Source: a phage | Strand: one strand, 5' to 3' | Sequence record: PX104378.1 | DNA: 64,000 nucleotides | Shown here: piece after piece, positions 4,626-43,808 of the stretch | Layout of the letters: each line of letters begins with the position of its first letter | How positions within the stretch are numbered: the stretch's first letter is position 1 | Notes under the pieces: model-generated | What the model saw: only the letters and a program-made list of their open reading frames with translations | The model's database searches: none | What the model was told of the DNA's origin: nothing | Program-made: the position numbers and the translations under genes

Positions 4626-4867
4626 ATACGCCCCTTTAACCCAACACAGATTTTAGAAGGTTCTTTACCGTGCCACATTAAGTAAAGTCCGTTAGTGCGG
4701 CCTTGTTTTGTATATGATTCTTTTCTAATCTTCTTATAGTGTCGTGCTTCCTCAACCGATTGTTTAGAATACCAATCATAAAGGAAGATGAACAAAGGCC
4801 AACCATTAGCGGCCTTAATGCAGTTATTAAGAAATTCCTTATTGCGTTTAATTAATTTTCTTTTCAC
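4622..4867 (-). CDS. hypothetical basic protein (81 aa)
   Basis: ORF with 4-nt overlaps to both neighbours. Confidence 0.5.
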   Translation of the reverse strand: MKRKLIKRNKEFLNNCIKAANGWPLFIFLYDWYSKQSVEEARHYKKIRKESYTKQGRTNGLYLMWHGKEPSKICVGLKGRI

Positions 4868-5115
4868 GCTGCCCCCGTTGGTTTGATAGTAACAGAATCT
4901 AAAAGACCTTTGTTAGCCAGTTCGCGGCAAGTTTTCAGATCCGCAACTTCCCAGCCAGCCGCAATCAGGTTATCTATGAGGCTGTTAGCAACTTCCTCGC
5001 TCATGAAAGAGCACTGTTTGCCGATGGTGTAGCGTACACGCTGTAATTTCAGTTTACGGAAGCCTTTAACGTTCAGGTCTTTAGCGATTTTCTTTGCGGT
5101 TTCGATGTTAGCCAT
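4864..5115 (-). CDS. hypothetical protein (83 aa), first gene of coupled operon
   Basis: starts MANIE; conserved leader AGGAGAATCAAACAATG downstream of promoter cassette. Confidence 0.55.
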   Translation of the reverse strand: MANIETAKKIAKDLNVKGFRKLKLQRVRYTIGKQCSFMSEEVANSLIDNLIAAGWEVADLKTCRELANKGLLDSVTIKPTGAA

Positions 5116-5155
5116 TGTTTGATTCTCCTAAGTGGTATCTCGTCTTGATGGTTGT

Positions 5156-5184
5156 ATTGTAGGGGAGTTATCCTCCCCTGTCAA
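5156..5184 (-). promoter_or_regulatory. sigma70-type early promoter cassette
   Basis: TTGACA-GGGGAGGATAACTCCCC(17)-TACAAT on minus strand. Confidence 0.55.
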
Positions 5185-5198
5185 CACTTTTTATAAAA

Positions 5199-5366
5199 TT
5201 ATTTGTTAATTTCTGGTGCGTTGCTAGGATAGTAACCTTCTTTAACTCCGAGGTATTTCGCAACCATCCCTACAATCTTCTGTGCTACTACAATGTCAAA
5301 TTTCAGATAATCTTCGCCGTGGGTTTCAATGATATATGCTTCACATGCTGCTTTAGTCTCGAACAT
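5199..5366 (-). CDS. small hypothetical protein (55 aa), paralog of 8461..8628
   Basis: MFETKAACEAYIIETHGEDYLKFDIVVAQKIVGMVAKYLGVKEGYYPSNAPEINK; nearly identical to the 8461..8628 product. Confidence 0.5.
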   Translation of the reverse strand: MFETKAACEAYIIETHGEDYLKFDIVVAQKIVGMVAKYLGVKEGYYPSNAPEINK

Positions 5367-5399
5367 TTTGATTCTCCTATTTCGTTTCGGTATGTGTGT

Positions 5400-5428
5400 A
5401 TTATAGGGGATCTCCCGATCCCCGTCAA
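5400..5428 (-). promoter_or_regulatory. sigma70-type early promoter cassette
   Basis: TTGACG-GGGATCGGGAGATCCCC(17)-TATAAT on minus strand. Confidence 0.55.
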
Positions 5429-5442
5429 CAACTTTTTTAAAA

Positions 5443-5724
5443 TTATTCGTGATTAGTTTCGATGTTGTACATTTTGCACCAGTTCAGCCAATCGCCCAGA
5501 TCTTGATAGTTGATGCTTTTATCTGCGGCCATCGTTTTTGTCTTGATACCCATATGTGCGTTATGAGTAAGCATTTTTACAGTGAACTCAATTTTATCGC
5601 CTTTAGCTTTAACATCAACCAGTTTGGTCCACTGGCTACCAGCACCGCGAATGTTCATACCAACGATGTTTCCGATGTATGCTTCTTTGTTTTTCAGGAT
5701 TTCGGTTGCTTTGATGAATTTCAT
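5443..5724 (-). CDS. hypothetical protein (93 aa)
   Basis: ORF behind cassette leader GGAGAATCAAAAATG. Confidence 0.55.
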   Translation of the reverse strand: MKFIKATEILKNKEAYIGNIVGMNIRGAGSQWTKLVDVKAKGDKIEFTVKMLTHNAHMGIKTKTMAADKSINYQDLGDWLNWCKMYNIETNHE

Positions 5725-5757
5725 TTTTGATTCTCCAGTTCGTTTCGGTATGTGTGT

Positions 5758-5786
5758 ATTATGCTATGTTCTTACTTTGGTGTCAA
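5758..5786 (-). promoter_or_regulatory. sigma70-type early promoter cassette
   Basis: TTGACA-N17-CATAAT on minus strand. Confidence 0.55.
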
Positions 5787-5795
5787 CAACTTTTT

Positions 5796-6065
5796 TTAGA
5801 TATTTTCAGAAATAAATTTTAAAACTTGACGTAAATGTTTCTCATCTTTGATGGTAGCCGGAAGTTCTTCTTTTACTTCCTGTGCAAGATAGATATTTCC
5901 GTTCCAAGTGAAAGATCCGTCTTCGTTTACTCGATAGCTGAACATCCACTCGCAATCATTTTCGATTTCATATACACACAGAAGGGTGTAATCGTTAAAG
6001 CTATTGATTTCAAGGTCGAAGCCGTGACGTTTTGCAAAGTTGGTAGTGGTTTTAGTCAGTGCCAT
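5796..6065 (-). CDS. hypothetical protein (89 aa)
   Basis: ORF behind cassette leader AGGAGAATCAAACAATG. Confidence 0.55.
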   Translation of the reverse strand: MALTKTTTNFAKRHGFDLEINSFNDYTLLCVYEIENDCEWMFSYRVNEDGSFTWNGNIYLAQEVKEELPATIKDEKHLRQVLKFISENI

Positions 6066-6105
6066 TGTTTGATTCTCCTAAGTGGTATCTCGTTTCGATG
6101 TGTGT

Positions 6106-6134
6106 ATTATGCTATAGGCTAGACCAGGTGTCAA
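6106..6134 (-). promoter_or_regulatory. sigma70-type early promoter cassette
   Basis: TTGACA-N17-CATAAT on minus strand. Confidence 0.55.
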
Positions 6135-6160
6135 CAACTTTTTTTAATTTTTTTGGAAAT

Positions 6161-6185
6161 AAAAAAGCCGACGCTAAGGTCGGCT
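6161..6185 (-). terminator. rho-independent terminator
   Basis: AGCCGAC-GCTAAG-GTCGGCT hairpin followed on minus strand by UUUUUU. Confidence 0.6.
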
Positions 6186-6192
6186 AATAAAA

Positions 6193-6501
6193 TCATTTAG
6201 ACAAATAATCATTCTGTGCAATCCGGTCGGCGTATGCTGGTGTTACGTCAATCGCAATCACTTTAACGCGTGCTTTCTTGCGACCTGGGTTTTCTCGTAA
6301 CCAGTGCTCATGACCGTGAACATTTTTATACTGCGATGCTTCTTCGAAGGTACGGATCGGACCTGGGTAATCAGCGTAAAGGATCTCTAGATCTTCGGTG
6401 ATGTAAAAATATACATCGTAATTGCTGTTCTCTAGCTTAAGCAGAGACTTTCGGAACATTGGGAGATTTTCGCGGGTAAATTCAAAGATATTATCTTTCA
6501 T
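6193..6501 (-). CDS. HxHW-family small protein, copy 1 (102 aa)
   Basis: HGHEHW ... VKVIAIDV motif shared with five paralogs; GAGGA SD. Confidence 0.6.
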   Translation of the reverse strand: MKDNIFEFTRENLPMFRKSLLKLENSNYDVYFYITEDLEILYADYPGPIRTFEEASQYKNVHGHEHWLRENPGRKKARVKVIAIDVTPAYADRIAQNDYLSK

Positions 6502-6515
6502 AGTATTATCCTCAA

Positions 6516-6536
6516 TAGTTGGATGAAAAGGGGGCT
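6516..6536 (-). terminator. GC hairpin terminator
   Basis: GGGGGC-TTAAC-GCCCCC followed on minus strand by UUUU. Confidence 0.55.
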
Positions 6537-6551
6537 TAACGCCCCCATATA

Positions 6552-6839
6552 TTAAAACAGTCCTTCTTGTACGCCGTAGTAGAGTTCGTCGCTGATAATT
6601 TCATTAATGCGACGGTGTGCATATTCCTGATTTGCGAAGTTGTCAGCAAGTTCTACTTTAGTTTCGCCGTCATGAGTCCATTTAGTGATAACTTTACCAT
6701 CTGCAAATTTGAAGTTGAACTCTTTAGCTACTGCATCGCGTACCAGACGTGCAAACTTGTTGTTACGGATTGCATTATCGGTTTCGTGTGCAGCGTGAGC
6801 AAATTTGTTAACTTTCAGCGTGATAGTGATGTATGCCAT
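6552..6839 (-). CDS. hypothetical protein (95 aa)
   Basis: ORF behind cassette leader TAGGAGAATCAAATTATG. Confidence 0.55.
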   Translation of the reverse strand: MAYITITLKVNKFAHAAHETDNAIRNNKFARLVRDAVAKEFNFKFADGKVITKWTHDGETKVELADNFANQEYAHRRINEIISDELYYGVQEGLF

Positions 6840-6885
6840 AATTTGATTCTCCTAGTTAGAAAGTGTATCTCGTTTCGATGGGTGT

Positions 6886-6914
6886 ATTATGCTATACACC
6901 CGATCTTATGTCAA
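6886..6914 (-). promoter_or_regulatory. sigma70-type early promoter cassette
   Basis: TTGACA-N17-CATAAT on minus strand. Confidence 0.55.
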
Positions 6915-6920
6915 CACTTT

Positions 6921-7199
6921 TTATAAAATAATTTTTTGATATTTTTCTATGATGTTCGTGTAATCCACATCAACCGCTATCACCGTTGCTTCGAATCCAC
7001 CGTTTAGCCAATGGCTATGGTCATGATCGTGAAAGAAACCAAGACCAGTACGAAGACCTTCTTTATATTCGGCGCGTACATTTAGATCATCATCGATAAA
7101 CAGATAAAACCATGAATTTTTACTAGGATTGATGATACAACCTTTCAGATTAGGGAGAATATCACGACTAAGAATAAACTTATCACCTACTTTGAACAT
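6921..7199 (-). CDS. HxHW-family small protein, copy 2
   Basis: HDHDHSHW ... TVIAVDV; start moved to internal ATG (MFKVGDKF) that has a GAGGA SD. Confidence 0.55.
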   Translation of the reverse strand: MFKVGDKFILSRDILPNLKGCIINPSKNSWFYLFIDDDLNVRAEYKEGLRTGLGFFHDHDHSHWLNGGFEATVIAVDVDYTNIIEKYQKIIL

Positions 7200-7203
7200 A
7201 ATA

Positions 7204-7524
7204 TTAGTCCTCACTTATAAGGTCAAACCAATTGTTTTTCGCATAATGCTTAATGCGTGCTTGATCTGCTTCTGCTGGTGATAGATTCCATGCAACCACT
7301 ACAACTTCTGACGCATCGTCATCCGTTTCTGATACCCAATGATTATGATTCATACAATTGTTTGCTATCGCGTGAGCAAATGATTTCATCACTGGAGACG
7401 TATAATCATAGTAACGGATTTTCAGATTTTCATCAACGTACAAATAGATCGTATAAGGTTTATATTCAGTAACCAGTAACAGACAGTTACGCAATTCTGG
7501 GAAAATATTTTTAGTTAATTTCAT
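7204..7524 (-). CDS. HxHW-family small protein, copy 3 (106 aa)
   Basis: NHNHW ... VVVVAWN; GGAGAA SD. Confidence 0.55.
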   Translation of the reverse strand: MKLTKNIFPELRNCLLLVTEYKPYTIYLYVDENLKIRYYDYTSPVMKSFAHAIANNCMNHNHWVSETDDDASEVVVVAWNLSPAEADQARIKHYAKNNWFDLISED

Positions 7525-7739
7525 ATTCTAGTTCTCCGTAATACACGGTAATCCATTTTTTCTTCATACTTTGTATCTTTCCAACACACAATCCCGTTTA
7601 CTGTGCAATCTTTGGAATTGACGAATGATTCATATTGTTCTGCATCTTCCATCATTGCATGAGCGGTCTTTTCATCGAATATATCGCAGATCGCTTTATA
7701 TGCTCGATAATCTTTAAATTTGCTCATAATTAAGACCAC
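7521..7739 (-). CDS. hypothetical protein (72 aa), tandem paralog A
   Basis: MSKFKDYRAYK... shares N-terminus and C..W..T.Y pattern with 7730..7939. Confidence 0.5.
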   Translation of the reverse strand: MVLIMSKFKDYRAYKAICDIFDEKTAHAMMEDAEQYESFVNSKDCTVNGIVCWKDTKYEEKMDYRVLRRTRI

Positions 7740-7939
7740 TCAAGAGTTTTTGAAAACACATCTATCCATTGTTGAGTATATGCGGTTTCTTTCCATGATA
7801 CAATACCAGTCGAATAATGGTTTTTGTTTCCAGAAAAGGACGGGCATTTTGAGGCATCTTCCATCATCTTTTCGGCGAACTCTGGTTCGTATACTCGCAA
7901 GATCTGTTGATATGCTTTATAATCTTTAAATTTGCTCAT
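7730..7939 (-). CDS. hypothetical protein (69 aa), tandem paralog B
   Basis: MSKFKDYKAYQ... paralog of 7521..7739. Confidence 0.5.
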   Translation of the reverse strand: MSKFKDYKAYQQILRVYEPEFAEKMMEDASKCPSFSGNKNHYSTGIVSWKETAYTQQWIDVFSKTLEWS

Positions 7940-8204
7940 AATTGTTAACTACCTTATCAGCTTCTTTTATTGTTTTTACATCAACTGCGATAATCCGTAA
8001 AGGTTCGTCGAAGGTCCACCAATGATCGTGATTATCAGCTTGTGATTTATCACCAAAGGAATCACGAATATCATTTTTACATTTATAGCTAATGTGACCT
8101 TCATAGTCAACATAAAGGTAATTATCAAAAATCGGCGTTTTTAAGATCATACCGAAAAATCTTTCTTTGTGTGTCTTATCCAGCGTTGCAGTAATTCGCA
8201 TCAT
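7926..8204 (-). CDS. HxHW-family small protein, copy 4 (92 aa)
   Basis: DNHDHWW ... RIIAVDV; AGAGGA SD. Confidence 0.6.
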   Translation of the reverse strand: MMRITATLDKTHKERFFGMILKTPIFDNYLYVDYEGHISYKCKNDIRDSFGDKSQADNHDHWWTFDEPLRIIAVDVKTIKEADKVVNNYEQI

Positions 8205-8216
8205 AATATATTCCTC

Positions 8217-8396
8217 TTAGAAAGGGATGGTCATTTCTTGAGCTTGTACATTCTCGTTAGGATTAAACTTCATCCAACCGATATTGTCTACCAGCATATG
8301 CACATTTTTATCATATCCTACGTGAGTAGTCAATACTGTATGTGCTTTACCTTCAACGATGATTTCCATGTACTTCTGAACTTCGATAGCTTTCAT
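8217..8396 (-). CDS. small hypothetical protein (59 aa)
   Basis: MKAIEVQKYMEIIVEGKAHTVL...; cassette leader GGAGAATCAAAATG. Confidence 0.45.
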   Translation of the reverse strand: MKAIEVQKYMEIIVEGKAHTVLTTHVGYDKNVHMLVDNIGWMKFNPNENVQAQEMTIPF

Positions 8397-8428
8397 TTTG
8401 ATTCTCCGTTTGTTGTCTTGATGGGAGT

Positions 8429-8457
8429 ATCTTACTACTCCCTTTAATCATTGTCAA
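8429..8457 (-). promoter_or_regulatory. sigma70-type early promoter cassette
   Basis: TTGACA-N17-TAAGAT on minus strand. Confidence 0.5.
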
Positions 8458-8460
8458 CGA

Positions 8461-8628
8461 TTATTTGTTAATTTCCGGTGCGTTGCTTGGATAGTAACCT
8501 TCTTTAACACCCAGATATTTTGCAACCATTCCGGTGATCTTCTGTGCTACTACGATATCGAATTTCAGGTAGTCTTCACCGTGGTTTGCTACAATGTATG
8601 CTTCGCATTCTGCTTTAGTCTGGAACAT
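8461..8628 (-). CDS. small hypothetical protein (55 aa), paralog of 5199..5366
   Basis: MFQTKAECEAYIVANHGEDYLKFDIVVAQKITGMVAKYLGVKEGYYPSNAPEINK; start taken at internal ATG behind the cassette leader. Confidence 0.5.
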   Translation of the reverse strand: MFQTKAECEAYIVANHGEDYLKFDIVVAQKITGMVAKYLGVKEGYYPSNAPEINK

Positions 8629-8662
8629 TTTTGATTCTCCTATATCTCGTTGGTATGTGTGC

Positions 8663-8692
8663 ATTATAGGGGATCGGTGACCCCCCTGTCAA
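8663..8692 (-). promoter_or_regulatory. sigma70-type early promoter cassette
   Basis: TTGACA-GGGGGGTCACCGATCCCC(18)-TATAAT on minus strand. Confidence 0.55.
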
Positions 8693-8699
8693 CAACTTT

Positions 8700-9002
8700 T
8701 TATTCTTCGTCTTTATCTTTATATGCGTATTTCATAAATTTGTCTGCCACTTCGTCCGCGTTTTCAGGTTCTACGTCTGACGCTAGGACAACAGCTAGTT
8801 CGGTTTTGTCGTTTCCATCATACCAATGATTATGAGTGTCGTTTTCTTCGATATAAAACGAATCATTTGGATATGGGCGACAATATACGTCTAAATTCCC
8901 ATCGATATAAAAGATCCAATCCGAATACAAAATGATTGTTTTAGCCAGATTTTTATTGTCTCTTACAAAAGGTTCCGCGACAAATAGCTTAGTTTGTTCC
9001 AT
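8700..9002 (-). CDS. HxHW-family small protein, copy 5
   Basis: THNHW ... LAVVLASDV; start at internal ATG (MEQTKLF) with GAGGAG SD. Confidence 0.55.
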   Translation of the reverse strand: MEQTKLFVAEPFVRDNKNLAKTIILYSDWIFYIDGNLDVYCRPYPNDSFYIEENDTHNHWYDGNDKTELAVVLASDVEPENADEVADKFMKYAYKDKDEE

Positions 9003-9267: not shown

Positions 9268-9588
9268 TCACACAAAATGGCGTTTCAATGCTTCTTTTGC
9301 GGTTCCGCTAAGACTTTCGATCTCGCCTGGCATAACATCAACTGCCAGAACTTCTACAACATCCTCTGACCCCAACCAGTGAGTATGACCTTTGTAGAAC
9401 TTGATAACCAGACTACCTTCCTCATCCCATTTAACGCTATCGCTAGCCCACCACACATCACCGTCGATAAAGTTGATGTAAAGCACACTACGCCACATTG
9501 AATTAATTACTTTCAATACTGCGCCTTTCATATCTTCCACGGTGTGGTCTTCCATTTTGAAGACCTCGCCTACCTGAACTTTTGCCAT
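9268..9588 (-). CDS. HxHW-family small protein, copy 6 (106 aa)
   Basis: GHTHW ... VLAVDV; GAGGTGA SD. Confidence 0.6.
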   Translation of the reverse strand: MAKVQVGEVFKMEDHTVEDMKGAVLKVINSMWRSVLYINFIDGDVWWASDSVKWDEEGSLVIKFYKGHTHWLGSEDVVEVLAVDVMPGEIESLSGTAKEALKRHFV

Positions 9589-9819: not shown

Positions 9820-9848
9820 AGTATAGGGGATCACCGATCCCCTGTCAA
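9820..9848 (-). promoter_or_regulatory. sigma70-type early promoter cassette
   Basis: TTGACA-GGGGATCGGTGATCCCC(17)-TATACT on minus strand. Confidence 0.55.
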
Positions 9849-20508: not shown

Positions 20509-20537
20509 ATTATAGCGGGGATTTCTCCCCGCGTCAA
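20509..20537 (-). promoter_or_regulatory. sigma70-type early promoter cassette
   Basis: TTGACG-CGGGGAGAAATCCCCGC(17)-TATAAT immediately after nrdA stop. Confidence 0.55.
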
Positions 20538-43779: not shown

Positions 43780-43808
43780 ATTGTAGGGGATCGCCGATCC
43801 CCTGTCAA
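43780..43808 (-). promoter_or_regulatory. sigma70-type early promoter cassette
   Basis: TTGACA-GGGGATCGGCGATCCCC(17)-TACAAT on minus strand. Confidence 0.55.

What the first reader, a model, noticed from the sequence alone, without database searches (positions are those of the whole stretch)
5199..8692. Near-identical 55-aa gene present twice, each behind its own promoter cassette
The products of 5199..5366 and 8461..8628 differ at only a handful of positions, and both genes sit directly behind the GGGGATC-type cassette. This looks like a recent cassette-mediated duplication.
Basis: seen in the sequence. Interest (0 to 1): 0.4.

Follow-up and report, generated by a model that had tools for sequence, protein, structure and literature searches.

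The report
Old duplicated small gene behind PeSL promoters
A 55-residue early gene of an RB49-like (Krischvirus) coliphage is present twice, each copy behind an already described "PeSL" promoter/stem-loop cassette, but the duplication is ancient rather than recent, so this is an ordinary example of a known phage gene-shuffling system.

Summary
Window 5199-5366(-) and 8461-8628(-) encode 55-aa proteins identical at 49 of 55 residues. Each follows a near-consensus sigma70 promoter with a GGGG...CCCC stem-loop between -35 and -10.

The window is a Krischvirus. The genes are RB49 ORF191 and ORF205. The cassettes are the PeSLs of Arbiol et al. 2010, who cloned PeSL206/205 as a strong promoter and recovered ORF191 in a mini-circle.

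"Recent" is refuted:
- 17 of 23 changed codons are synonymous (pS 0.56, dS about 1.05, 95% CI 0.5 to saturated; dN/dS 0.05).
- Orthologues across the genus differ by dS 0.095 or less.
- By my reckoning from the search totals, 52 of 59 Krischvirus records carry both copies.

"Cassette-mediated" is plausible but unproven. Homology runs from the PeSL to the stop codon, yet each cassette resembles a cassette of an unrelated gene more (88%, 81%) than its partner (77%).

New details:
- Contiguous gene-conversion tracts between the copies.
- Two junction types for deletion of the 3.26-kb block between them (Cognac, FL04).
- Precise excision of copy A leaving a chimeric PeSL (Brandy, JK32, UPWr_E1).

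The protein's function is unknown (PHROG 8009).

The parts
5199..5366 (-). Copy A, a 55-aa early ORF. It is the orthologue of RB49 ORF191 (RB49p191) and belongs to PHROG 8009.
   Evidence: ORF list. 98-100% aa identity to RB49p191 and other Krischvirus orthologues. PHROG 8009 at E=7e-38.
5367..5438 (-). PeSL cassette in front of copy A (PeSL193/191 in this phage). SD 5374-5378, -10 TATAAT 5400-5405, stem-loop GGGGATCGGGAGATCCCC 5406-5423, -35 TTGACG 5423-5428, A-rich UP region 5429-5438.
   Evidence: Sequence. Promoter scans. Cassette RNA fold -14.9 kcal/mol, z=-3.0.
5116..5198 (-). Next PeSL downstream of copy A (PeSL191/190), driving the ORF190 homologue at 4864-5115. It marks the 3' boundary of the copy A module. 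-35 is at 5179-5184 and -10 TACAAT at 5156-5161.
   Evidence: fold -19.4 kcal/mol, z=-5.2. In Brandy, JK32 and UPWr_E1 its 3' half is fused to the 5' half of A's PeSL.
8461..8628 (-). Copy B, a 55-aa early ORF. It is the orthologue of RB49 ORF205 (RB49p205) and belongs to PHROG 8009.
8629..8701 (-). PeSL cassette in front of copy B (PeSL206/205). SD 8637-8641, -10 TATAAT 8663-8668, stem-loop GGGGGGTCACCGATCCCC 8669-8686, -35 TTGACA 8687-8692, A-rich UP region 8693-8701.
   Evidence: 12/12 match to consensus, spacer 18; -14.0 kcal/mol. PeSL206/205 was cloned and gave about 13,000 Miller units of lacZ (PMC2839356); the paper does not say from which of phi1 or RB49 it came.
8397..8460 (-). Promoter directly downstream of copy B (TTGACA-17-TAAGAT, 8429-8457). 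It drives the ORF204 homologue at 8217-8396 and marks the 3' boundary of the copy B module.
5367..8460 (-). The interval bracketed by the two direct repeats, which start 3262 nt apart. It holds the homologues of RB49 ORF193-204, including several H-x-H-W paralogues. This block together with one repeat copy (3.26 kb in all) is missing in phages Cognac and FL04.

Best explanation
The two genes are ancient paralogues, RB49 ORF191 and ORF205, in a hyperplastic region of a Krischvirus genome. Each is a self-contained PeSL + ORFan module: an AT-rich UP element, a near-consensus sigma70 early promoter with a G/C stem-loop in its spacer, a shared type of 5'UTR and SD, and a small ORF.

The most likely origin (inferred) is homologous recombination between PeSLs. 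Either an excised ORF191 mini-circle reinserted at another PeSL, or an unequal exchange occurred between PeSLs. This happened long before the sampled genus diversified.

Since then three things have happened.
- Both copies have stayed under strong purifying selection, and each kept its own fixed amino-acid differences. B is the more derived copy.
- The copies have occasionally exchanged short tracts by ectopic gene conversion.
- As direct repeats 3.26 kb apart, they have served as substrates for deletion of the block between them. The PeSLs flanking copy A have mediated its precise excision.

Shown here: the paralogy, the module boundaries, the age, the purifying selection, the mosaic tracts and the deletion junctions. 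Taken from the literature: the promoter and terminator activity of PeSLs and mini-circle formation, including a circle that carried ORF191. Inferred: the original duplication route, and that the protein is a small helical early, host-directed factor.
For: Identity of the locus:
- The window region is 92-97% identical to Krischvirus genomes.
- Copy A is RB49p191 and copy B is RB49p205.
- The PeSL definition, the promoter assay of PeSL206/205, and the mini-circle containing ORFans 191-194 come from PMC2839356.

Age and selection:
- dS is 1.05 (95% CI 0.50 to saturated), dN is 0.055, and omega is 0.05 with an upper 95% bound of 0.14.
- Orthologue dS is at most 0.095.
- Of the 54 Krischvirus records listed, 47 show two places and 7 show one. 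From the totals of that call (59 Krischvirus-level records, 118 places) I reckon 52 of 59 carry both copies.

Common origin of A and B:
- A and B share many states against every outgroup, including H16, E18 and Y38, and against the siphoviruses also the PEINK tail.
- A keeps the outgroup states E3, E14 and T15. B keeps only E7.
- In Logan contig L015 the single homologue lies directly after an ORF194 homologue, as copy A's neighbourhood does.

Gene conversion:
- At 26 A/B diagnostic sites, PTE-Eco09_A is 'bbb' at its 5' end and also has a B-type 5'UTR.
- PTE-Eco09_B and Brandy_B carry six contiguous A-type sites. The chance that six sites drawn at random from 26 are contiguous is 9e-5.
- Cognac carries a 'bbb' patch and MIZ4_B ends in 'aa'.

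Deletions:
- Cognac and FL04 both read [ORF206][one copy][ORF190]. Their crossover points differ: at the SD in Cognac, and in the -35/stem-loop in FL04.
- Brandy, JK32 and UPWr_E1 read [ORF193][ORF190], joined by one chimeric PeSL. The switch falls between the -10 box and the SD.
Against: - The cassette similarity is family-wide rather than pair-specific, so the involvement of PeSLs in the original duplication is circumstantial.
- With only 55 codons the dS estimate has a wide interval, and the A/B/outgroup polarity rests on a handful of sites.
- No mini-circle or transcript data exist for this particular phage.
- Gene conversion complicates any dating.
- The protein's function is completely unsupported by homology: no Pfam match, no PDB match, and no significant fold match.
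Confidence: 0.8

Rival explanations
1. Independent acquisition (xenologues). The two copies were never duplicated in place. Two already diverged alleles of the same small gene were captured separately from other phages, each inserted at a PeSL, for example through mini-circles.
For: Synonymous sites are near saturation. The cassettes are not each other's closest relatives. The gene family also occurs in unrelated siphoviruses (Swiduovirus swi2, Skatevirus SeSz-2) and in an unknown Logan phage, so it does move horizontally. PeSL mini-circles are reported to be packaged into virions (PMC2839356).
Against: A and B are 89% identical and share the C-terminal PEINK tail against the siphovirus homologues, plus many residues against every known outgroup homologue, which are 70-83% identical to A. 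No donor lineage carrying only a B-like allele was found in 50,697 phage records, 5.8 billion proteins or 1.84 billion cluster representatives.
Confidence: 0.12
2. Recent cassette-mediated duplication. One copy was made from the other shortly before this phage was isolated.
For: The proteins are 89% identical and the module architecture is the same.
Against: The CDS differs at 26 of 168 nt, and 17 of the changed codons are synonymous. The same A and B alleles sit at the same two loci across a genus whose orthologues differ by dS of at most 0.095. The downstream flanks are unrelated.
Confidence: 0.02
3. The repeat is maintained for what it does as DNA. The two PeSL+ORF repeats act as recombination handles that make the intervening 3.3-kb ORFan block an excisable and exchangeable super-cassette. 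On this view the protein matters less than the repeat.
For: There are two junction types for deletion of exactly this block (Cognac, FL04). Mosaic exchange between the repeats is seen. T4-type recombination needs less than 50 bp of homology (PMC2839356 discussion).
Against: dN/dS of 0.05, together with saturated synonymous sites, shows that selection acts on the protein rather than on DNA identity. The 15% divergence lowers recombination efficiency. Deletions are an expected by-product of any direct repeat.
Confidence: 0.06

Closest known systems
PeSL (promoter-early stem-loop) + ORFan cassettes of phages RB49 and phi1 (Arbiol, Comeau, Kutateladze, Adamia, Krisch 2010, PMC2839356; extended in Comeau et al. 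2014, PMC4122927)
   Same: It is the same genus and the same loci. Both have an AT-rich region, TTGACA-N17/18-TATAAT, a GGGG-loop-CCCC stem-loop between -35 and -10, an SD, and a small ORFan. PeSL206/205 (copy B's cassette) was the promoter assayed in that paper. ORF191 (copy A) was inside the sequenced '192H' mini-circle. The chimeric-PeSL deletion junctions found here fall in the same -10-to-SD zone as the published crossovers.
   Different: The two PeSL papers describe insertions, deletions and replacements. In their text the stems 'paralog' and 'gene conversion' do not occur, and 'duplicat' occurs once, for duplicate cultures. So the ORF191/ORF205 paralogy, the conversion tracts and the inter-copy deletions are additions rather than restatements.
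Morons of lambdoid phages (Hendrix et al. 2000)
   Same: Both are single small accessory genes carrying their own promoter and terminator, inserted between other genes.
   Different: Morons are thought to arrive by illegitimate recombination without conserved flanking linkers. Here the conserved regulatory cassette itself supplies the homology (PMC2839356 discussion).
Integron gene cassettes
   Same: Both involve small promoter-associated modules that can exist as excised circles and reinsert at a conserved site.
   Different: No integrase or attC/attI sites are present. Exchange appears to use general homologous recombination. Each module carries its own promoter.
Direct-repeat-mediated deletion and ectopic gene conversion between paralogues (general homologous-recombination behaviour; T4 HPR deletions of Mosig et al. 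1998, as cited in PMC2839356)
   Same: The deletion takes out the segment between two direct repeats and leaves one hybrid copy. Short contiguous tracts are transferred between the copies.
   Different: Nothing differs in mechanism. It is simply documented here for this gene pair across natural isolates.

Membership tests
PeSL regulatory cassette (Arbiol et al. 2010) | Near-consensus sigma70 -35 and -10 hexamers with a spacer of about 17 nt | tested here: met
   A: TTGACG-17-TATAAT (11/12). B: TTGACA-18-TATAAT (12/12). The pattern is enriched 33 versus 2.6 expected.
PeSL regulatory cassette (Arbiol et al. 2010) | AT-rich region upstream of -35 that contains the stop codon of the preceding gene | tested here: met
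   A reads TAATTTTAAAAAAGTTG and B reads GAATAAAAAGTTG, immediately 5' of TTGAC.
PeSL regulatory cassette (Arbiol et al. 2010) | Stable polyG...polyC stem-loop within or next to the promoter (most common class: between -35 and -10) | tested here: met
   A 7-8 bp stem lies between the hexamers. The fold is -12.4 to -14.1 kcal/mol for the promoter segment and -14.0 to -14.9 for the roughly 50-nt cassette RNA, with z = -1.7 (B) and -3.0 (A).
PeSL regulatory cassette (Arbiol et al. 2010) | Shine-Dalgarno sequence and start codon of a small ORFan at the 3' end; location in a hyperplastic region | tested here: met
   AGGAGAATCAAA(A)ATG precedes both copies. The region lies between the Alt genes and DNA ligase/gp31 and is packed with hypothetical ORFs that vary between isolates.
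PeSL regulatory cassette (Arbiol et al. 2010) | Promoter activity in vivo | not testable with these tools
   The evidence is from the literature only. PeSL206/205 gave about 13,000 Miller units (PMC2839356). The window's cassette differs from RB49's mainly in the stem-loop (its 5' arm and loop) and in the upstream A-rich region.
PeSL regulatory cassette (Arbiol et al. 2010) | Terminator/attenuator activity of the stem-loop | not testable with these tools
   It was shown only for PeSL211/210. The consensus terminator scan did not call either cassette, because neither has a T-run after the stem.
PeSL regulatory cassette (Arbiol et al. 2010) | Recombination between neighbouring PeSLs produces indels of whole modules and leaves one chimeric PeSL | tested here: met
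   In Brandy, JK32 and UPWr_E1 the 84-nt ORF193-ORF190 spacer consists of A's UP, -35 and stem-loop with -10 box, joined to ORF190's UTR and SD. The A locus has four length states: 84, 327, 689 and 868 nt.
Recent segmental duplication | Near-identity at synonymous sites and in the flanks, and absence of one copy from close relatives | tested here: not met
   pS is 0.56 and dS 1.05. Both copies are present in 47 of the 54 listed Krischvirus records, and by reckoning from the totals in 52 of 59. The downstream flanks are unrelated.
PHROG 8009 (phage protein family of unknown function) | Full-length match to the family profile | tested here: met
   E = 6.8e-38 for A and 1.2e-38 for B, covering profile positions 1-55 of 55.

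The most novel reading that the evidence does not exclude
The diverged pair of PeSL+ORF repeats is kept because it has two roles. It encodes two sub-functionalised small early proteins. The A-specific and B-specific residues at positions 3, 7, 13-15 and 32 are fixed across the genus, and the GYYPSN tail is invariant, which might dock on a host target. At the same time it bounds a 3.3-kb block of H-x-H-W paralogues that can be excised or exchanged as one super-cassette. That would make it a natural composite mobile cassette in a strictly lytic phage.
Probability: 0.12. Interest if true: 0.45.

Novelty: new member of a known kind. Interest (0 to 1): 0.25.

Why it matters
The main value is as a clean natural illustration of the published PeSL shuffling model. 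One gene pair shows module duplication, ectopic gene conversion, deletion between repeats and precise module excision across about 60 sequenced isolates. This complements the PCR-based evidence of 2010.

In addition, it flags a small early protein that is strongly conserved under purifying selection and kept in two copies, and which has no known function. It does not open a new kind of biology.

Tried and rejected
Function of the protein:
- Pfam gave no hit.
- PHROGs gave only family 8009, of unknown function, plus a weak match to phrog_485.
- The 5.8-billion-protein search gave 4 clusters.
- An exhaustive profile search of 1.84 billion representatives gave 9 hits. Only about 4 are true short homologues; the rest are partial matches in long proteins.
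- A PDB sequence search gave 0 hits.
- AlphaFold2 gave a two-helix hairpin with a disordered tail, at mean pLDDT 67 and pTM 0.37.
- Foldseek against viral structures gave nothing below E=1.8, so no fold-based inference was drawn.

Other searches:
- An IMG/VR scan returned only 2 loci, so annotated GenBank records were used instead.
- I looked for a third copy in the window; tblastn finds only the two.
- I tested whether upstream homology is specific to the pair. It is not, so the cassette cannot be used to define duplication boundaries.
- The siphovirus homologue (swi2) has an ordinary promoter region without a GGGG...CCCC stem-loop. The Logan homologue is translationally coupled to the upstream gene and has no PeSL.
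- The two PeSL papers do not mention paralogy or gene conversion, and a search for ORF191/ORF205 returned no paper containing either term. In Nolan et al. 2006 the only passage matching 'paralog' or 'duplicat' concerns the alt and motB paralogues.


Full report
**1. What is in the sequence**

All genes in this part of the window run on the minus strand. Window 5199-5366 and 8461-8628 each encode a 55-residue protein. The two products are identical at 49 of 55 positions with no gaps, E=1e-37.

Each start codon is preceded by AGGAGAATCAAA(A), a 5'UTR of about 30 nt, and a near-perfect sigma70 promoter. Copy A has TTGACG-17-TATAAT at 5400-5428. Copy B has TTGACA-18-TATAAT at 8663-8692.

The promoter spacer in each case is a G/C stem-loop: GGGGATCGGGAGATCCCC for A and GGGGGGTCACCGATCCCC for B. 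Upstream of each lies an A-rich element, AAAAAGTTG.

The promoter pattern is strongly over-represented in the window, with 33 matches against 2.6 expected. Of these, 31 are on the minus strand.

The 67-aa version of copy B in the mechanical ORF list starts at an ATG inside the -10 box and can be disregarded.

**2. Identity of the locus**

The region is 92-97% identical to RB49-like coliphages of the genus Krischvirus, family Straboviridae. In RB49 the two genes are ORF191 (RB49p191, copy A) and ORF205 (RB49p205, copy B), and both are annotated as hypothetical.

The "GGGGATC cassette" is the PeSL, or promoter-early stem-loop, described by Arbiol et al. 2010 for RB49 and phi1. A PeSL comprises an AT-rich region, a sigma70 consensus promoter, a polyG/polyC stem-loop that is most often between -35 and -10, an SD, and the start of an ORFan (PMC2839356).

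That paper used exactly these elements:
- PeSL206/205, the cassette in front of copy B, was cloned and gave about 13,000 Miller units.
- The sequenced "192H" mini-circle contained ORFans 191-194. [quoted passage not shown]

The window has the phi1 topology, in which ORF192 is absent between ORF193 and ORF191.

**3. Boundaries of the repeat**

Aligned on the coding strand, similarity begins at AAAAAGTTGTTGAC, about 72 nt upstream of the ATG. It ends just after the stop codon, at TAAT, where each copy abuts a different downstream promoter. The repeated unit is about 242 nt, made of one PeSL plus the ORF. The two units are in direct orientation and start 3262 nt apart.

The upstream part is not specific to this pair. 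Over the cassette, A versus B is 77% identical. A is 88% identical to the cassette at ATG 9785, and B is 81% identical to the cassette at ATG 2810. Those two cassettes drive unrelated ORFs, since tblastn finds only two copies of the 55-aa gene in the window.

The flanks are therefore consistent with a PeSL-bounded module but do not prove that the cassette was co-duplicated.

**4. Age of the duplication**

The CDS is 142/168 identical.
- Of the 23 codons that differ, 17 are synonymous.
- Nei-Gojobori estimates give pS=0.56 and pN=0.053.
- These correspond to dS=1.05, dN=0.055 and dN/dS=0.05.
- Codon bootstrapping gives dS a 95% CI of 0.50 to saturated, and puts omega below 0.14.

Orthologues of A, or of B, in RB49, JSE, ECD7, G2248, MIZ4 and JK32 differ from the window's copy by dS of 0 to 0.095.

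tblastn finds the gene in 66 phage records. Seven are siphoviruses and 59 match at Krischvirus level. Of the 54 Krischvirus records listed, 47 have two places and 7 have one. From the total of 118 places I reckon that 52 of the 59 have two copies.

The duplication therefore predates the sampled diversity of the genus by a wide margin. Both copies are under strong purifying selection. "Recent" is refuted.

**5. Polarity and relatives**

Outside Krischvirus the family is tiny. It comprises 70-72% identical homologues in siphoviruses of about 45-47 kb (Swiduovirus swi2, Skatevirus SeSz-2 and relatives) and a few metagenomic proteins.

A and B share many states against all of these, including H16, E18 and Y38. 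Against the siphovirus homologues they also share the C-terminal PEINK extension. They are therefore each other's closest relatives.

At the six A/B diagnostic residues, the outgroups mostly agree with A at positions 3, 14 and 15 and with B at position 7. Copy B thus carries more derived changes.

In a Logan contig from an unidentified phage (L015), the single homologue sits directly after a homologue of ORF194 and overlaps its stop codon. No PeSL is present there. This mild synteny suggests the A locus is the older one. Both inferences rest on few characters.

**6. Ongoing exchange between the copies**

Across 11 Krischvirus loci plus the window I scored 26 nucleotide sites that distinguish consensus A from consensus B.

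Most sequences are pure A or pure B. Several carry contiguous tracts of the other type:
- PTE-Eco09 copy A has a B-type 5'UTR and B-type states at the first three CDS sites.
- PTE-Eco09 copy B and Brandy copy B have six consecutive A-type sites, at nt 51-75. The chance that six sites drawn at random from 26 are contiguous is 9e-5.
- Cognac's single copy has a three-site B patch.
- MIZ4 copy B has an A-type 3' end.

The stem-loop variants GGGGATCGGGAGATCCCC, GGGGATCGGTGATCCCC, GGGGATCACCGATCCCC and GGGGGGTCACCGATCCCC are also distributed differently between the A and B cassettes in different phages.

This is the signature of occasional ectopic gene conversion between the two modules, and among PeSLs generally.

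**7. Deletions**

Seven records have one copy.

Cognac and FL04 read [ORF206]-[one copy]-[ORF190], so the whole 3.26-kb repeat-to-repeat segment is gone.
- In Cognac the upstream flank and 5'UTR are B-type and the CDS is A-type from the first diagnostic site. The crossover was at the SD.
- In FL04 the flank and -35 are B-type, while the UTR and CDS are A-type. The crossover was in the -35/stem-loop region.
- These are two distinct junctions and so probably two independent events.

Brandy, JK32 and UPWr_E1 lack copy A precisely. ORF193 and ORF190 are separated by 84 nt that form one chimeric PeSL. It carries A's UP element, -35, stem-loop and -10, then switches at ...ACACACAT|CAAGACGAG... to ORF190's UTR and SD. 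This is the -10-to-SD zone in which Arbiol et al. mapped the crossover of one mini-circle.

MIZ4 has a larger deletion, running from after ORF193 to the ORF185-like gene next to alt.

The ORF193-ORF190 interval exists in four length states: 84, 327, 689 and 868 nt.

**8. The protein**

There is no Pfam, PDB or significant fold match. PHROG 8009 has unknown function.

AlphaFold2, run with a shallow alignment, gives two helices (residues 5-16 and 18-39) and a low-confidence tail, with mean pLDDT 67. The tail motif GYYPSN is invariant in A, B, P0003, P0005 and the siphovirus homologues.

My best guess, which is inference only, is a small early-expressed host-directed factor. Either copy can be lost in natural isolates.

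**9. Verdict**

The cassette is a known element, and the specific cassettes and genes lie in the very region where PeSL shuffling was demonstrated.

The duplication is old rather than recent. PeSL mediation of the original event is plausible but unproven. The conversion tracts and the recurrent deletions at and between the two modules are modest new comparative support for the published model.

Interest is low to moderate.

Noticed in passing
window 6196-6501, 6924-7196, 7207-7524, 7929-8204, 8703-8999, 9271-9588 (all minus strand): A six-member tandem family of 91-106-aa paralogues, 22-30% identical, with an invariant H-x-H-W motif followed by a V-x-A-x-D-V-like strand. No Pfam family matches. 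Four members lie between the two 55-aa copies and two lie just beyond copy B.
   Followed up: partly
window 7524-7727 and 7733-7939 (minus strand): Two adjacent ORFs of about 68 aa that both begin MSKFKDY-AY look like another tandem paralogue pair. They have no Pfam match.
   Followed up: no
L015 4723-5165 (Logan SRR5584643_240): In an unidentified phage contig, the single 54-aa homologue (P0003, 83% identical to copy A) directly follows a homologue of RB49 ORF194 and overlaps its stop codon. No PeSL is present. The rest of the contig matches no phage record beyond these two genes.
   Followed up: partly
window 5400-5428, 9820-9848, 2847-2875, 43780-43808, 5156-5184, 20509-20537, 8663-8692: Seven PeSLs in the window have the stem-loop between -35 and -10. 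Many further promoters share the same UP element and the ACACACATACCGAAACGA-type 5'UTR in front of unrelated ORFs. The cassette at ATG 9785 is 88% identical to copy A's. This suggests concerted evolution of the cassettes.
   Followed up: partly
window 6166-6185 and 6530-6546 (minus strand): Two classical intrinsic-terminator-like hairpins with T-runs lie inside the block between the copies. They are distinct from the PeSL stem-loops, which have no T-run.
   Followed up: no
L013 3185-3388 (G2248) and protein P0004: Some annotations and gene calls extend copy B to 67 aa or more from an ATG inside its own -10 box (MHTYQRDIGESKMFQ...). This is probably a start-codon mis-call. P0004 and P0006 also look like chimeric or truncated gene calls.
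   Followed up: partly
L004 3001-3358 (swi2) and L014 2501-2858 (SeSz-2): In the siphoviruses, the 51-aa homologue is the first gene of a short two-gene unit. It is transcribed divergently from a block of small ORFs and convergently with the large terminase gene. It is 70-72% identical to a T4-type phage gene, so the family is exchanged between unrelated coliphage and Salmonella phage groups.
   Followed up: partly
L008 8405-9046 (MIZ4) compared with L001 4102-7906 (RB49): MIZ4 lacks ORF191 through ORF186, including the DNA methyltransferase ORF189. It goes from ORF193 directly to the ORF185-like gene next to alt. The methyltransferase gene is therefore dispensable in some isolates.
   Followed up: no
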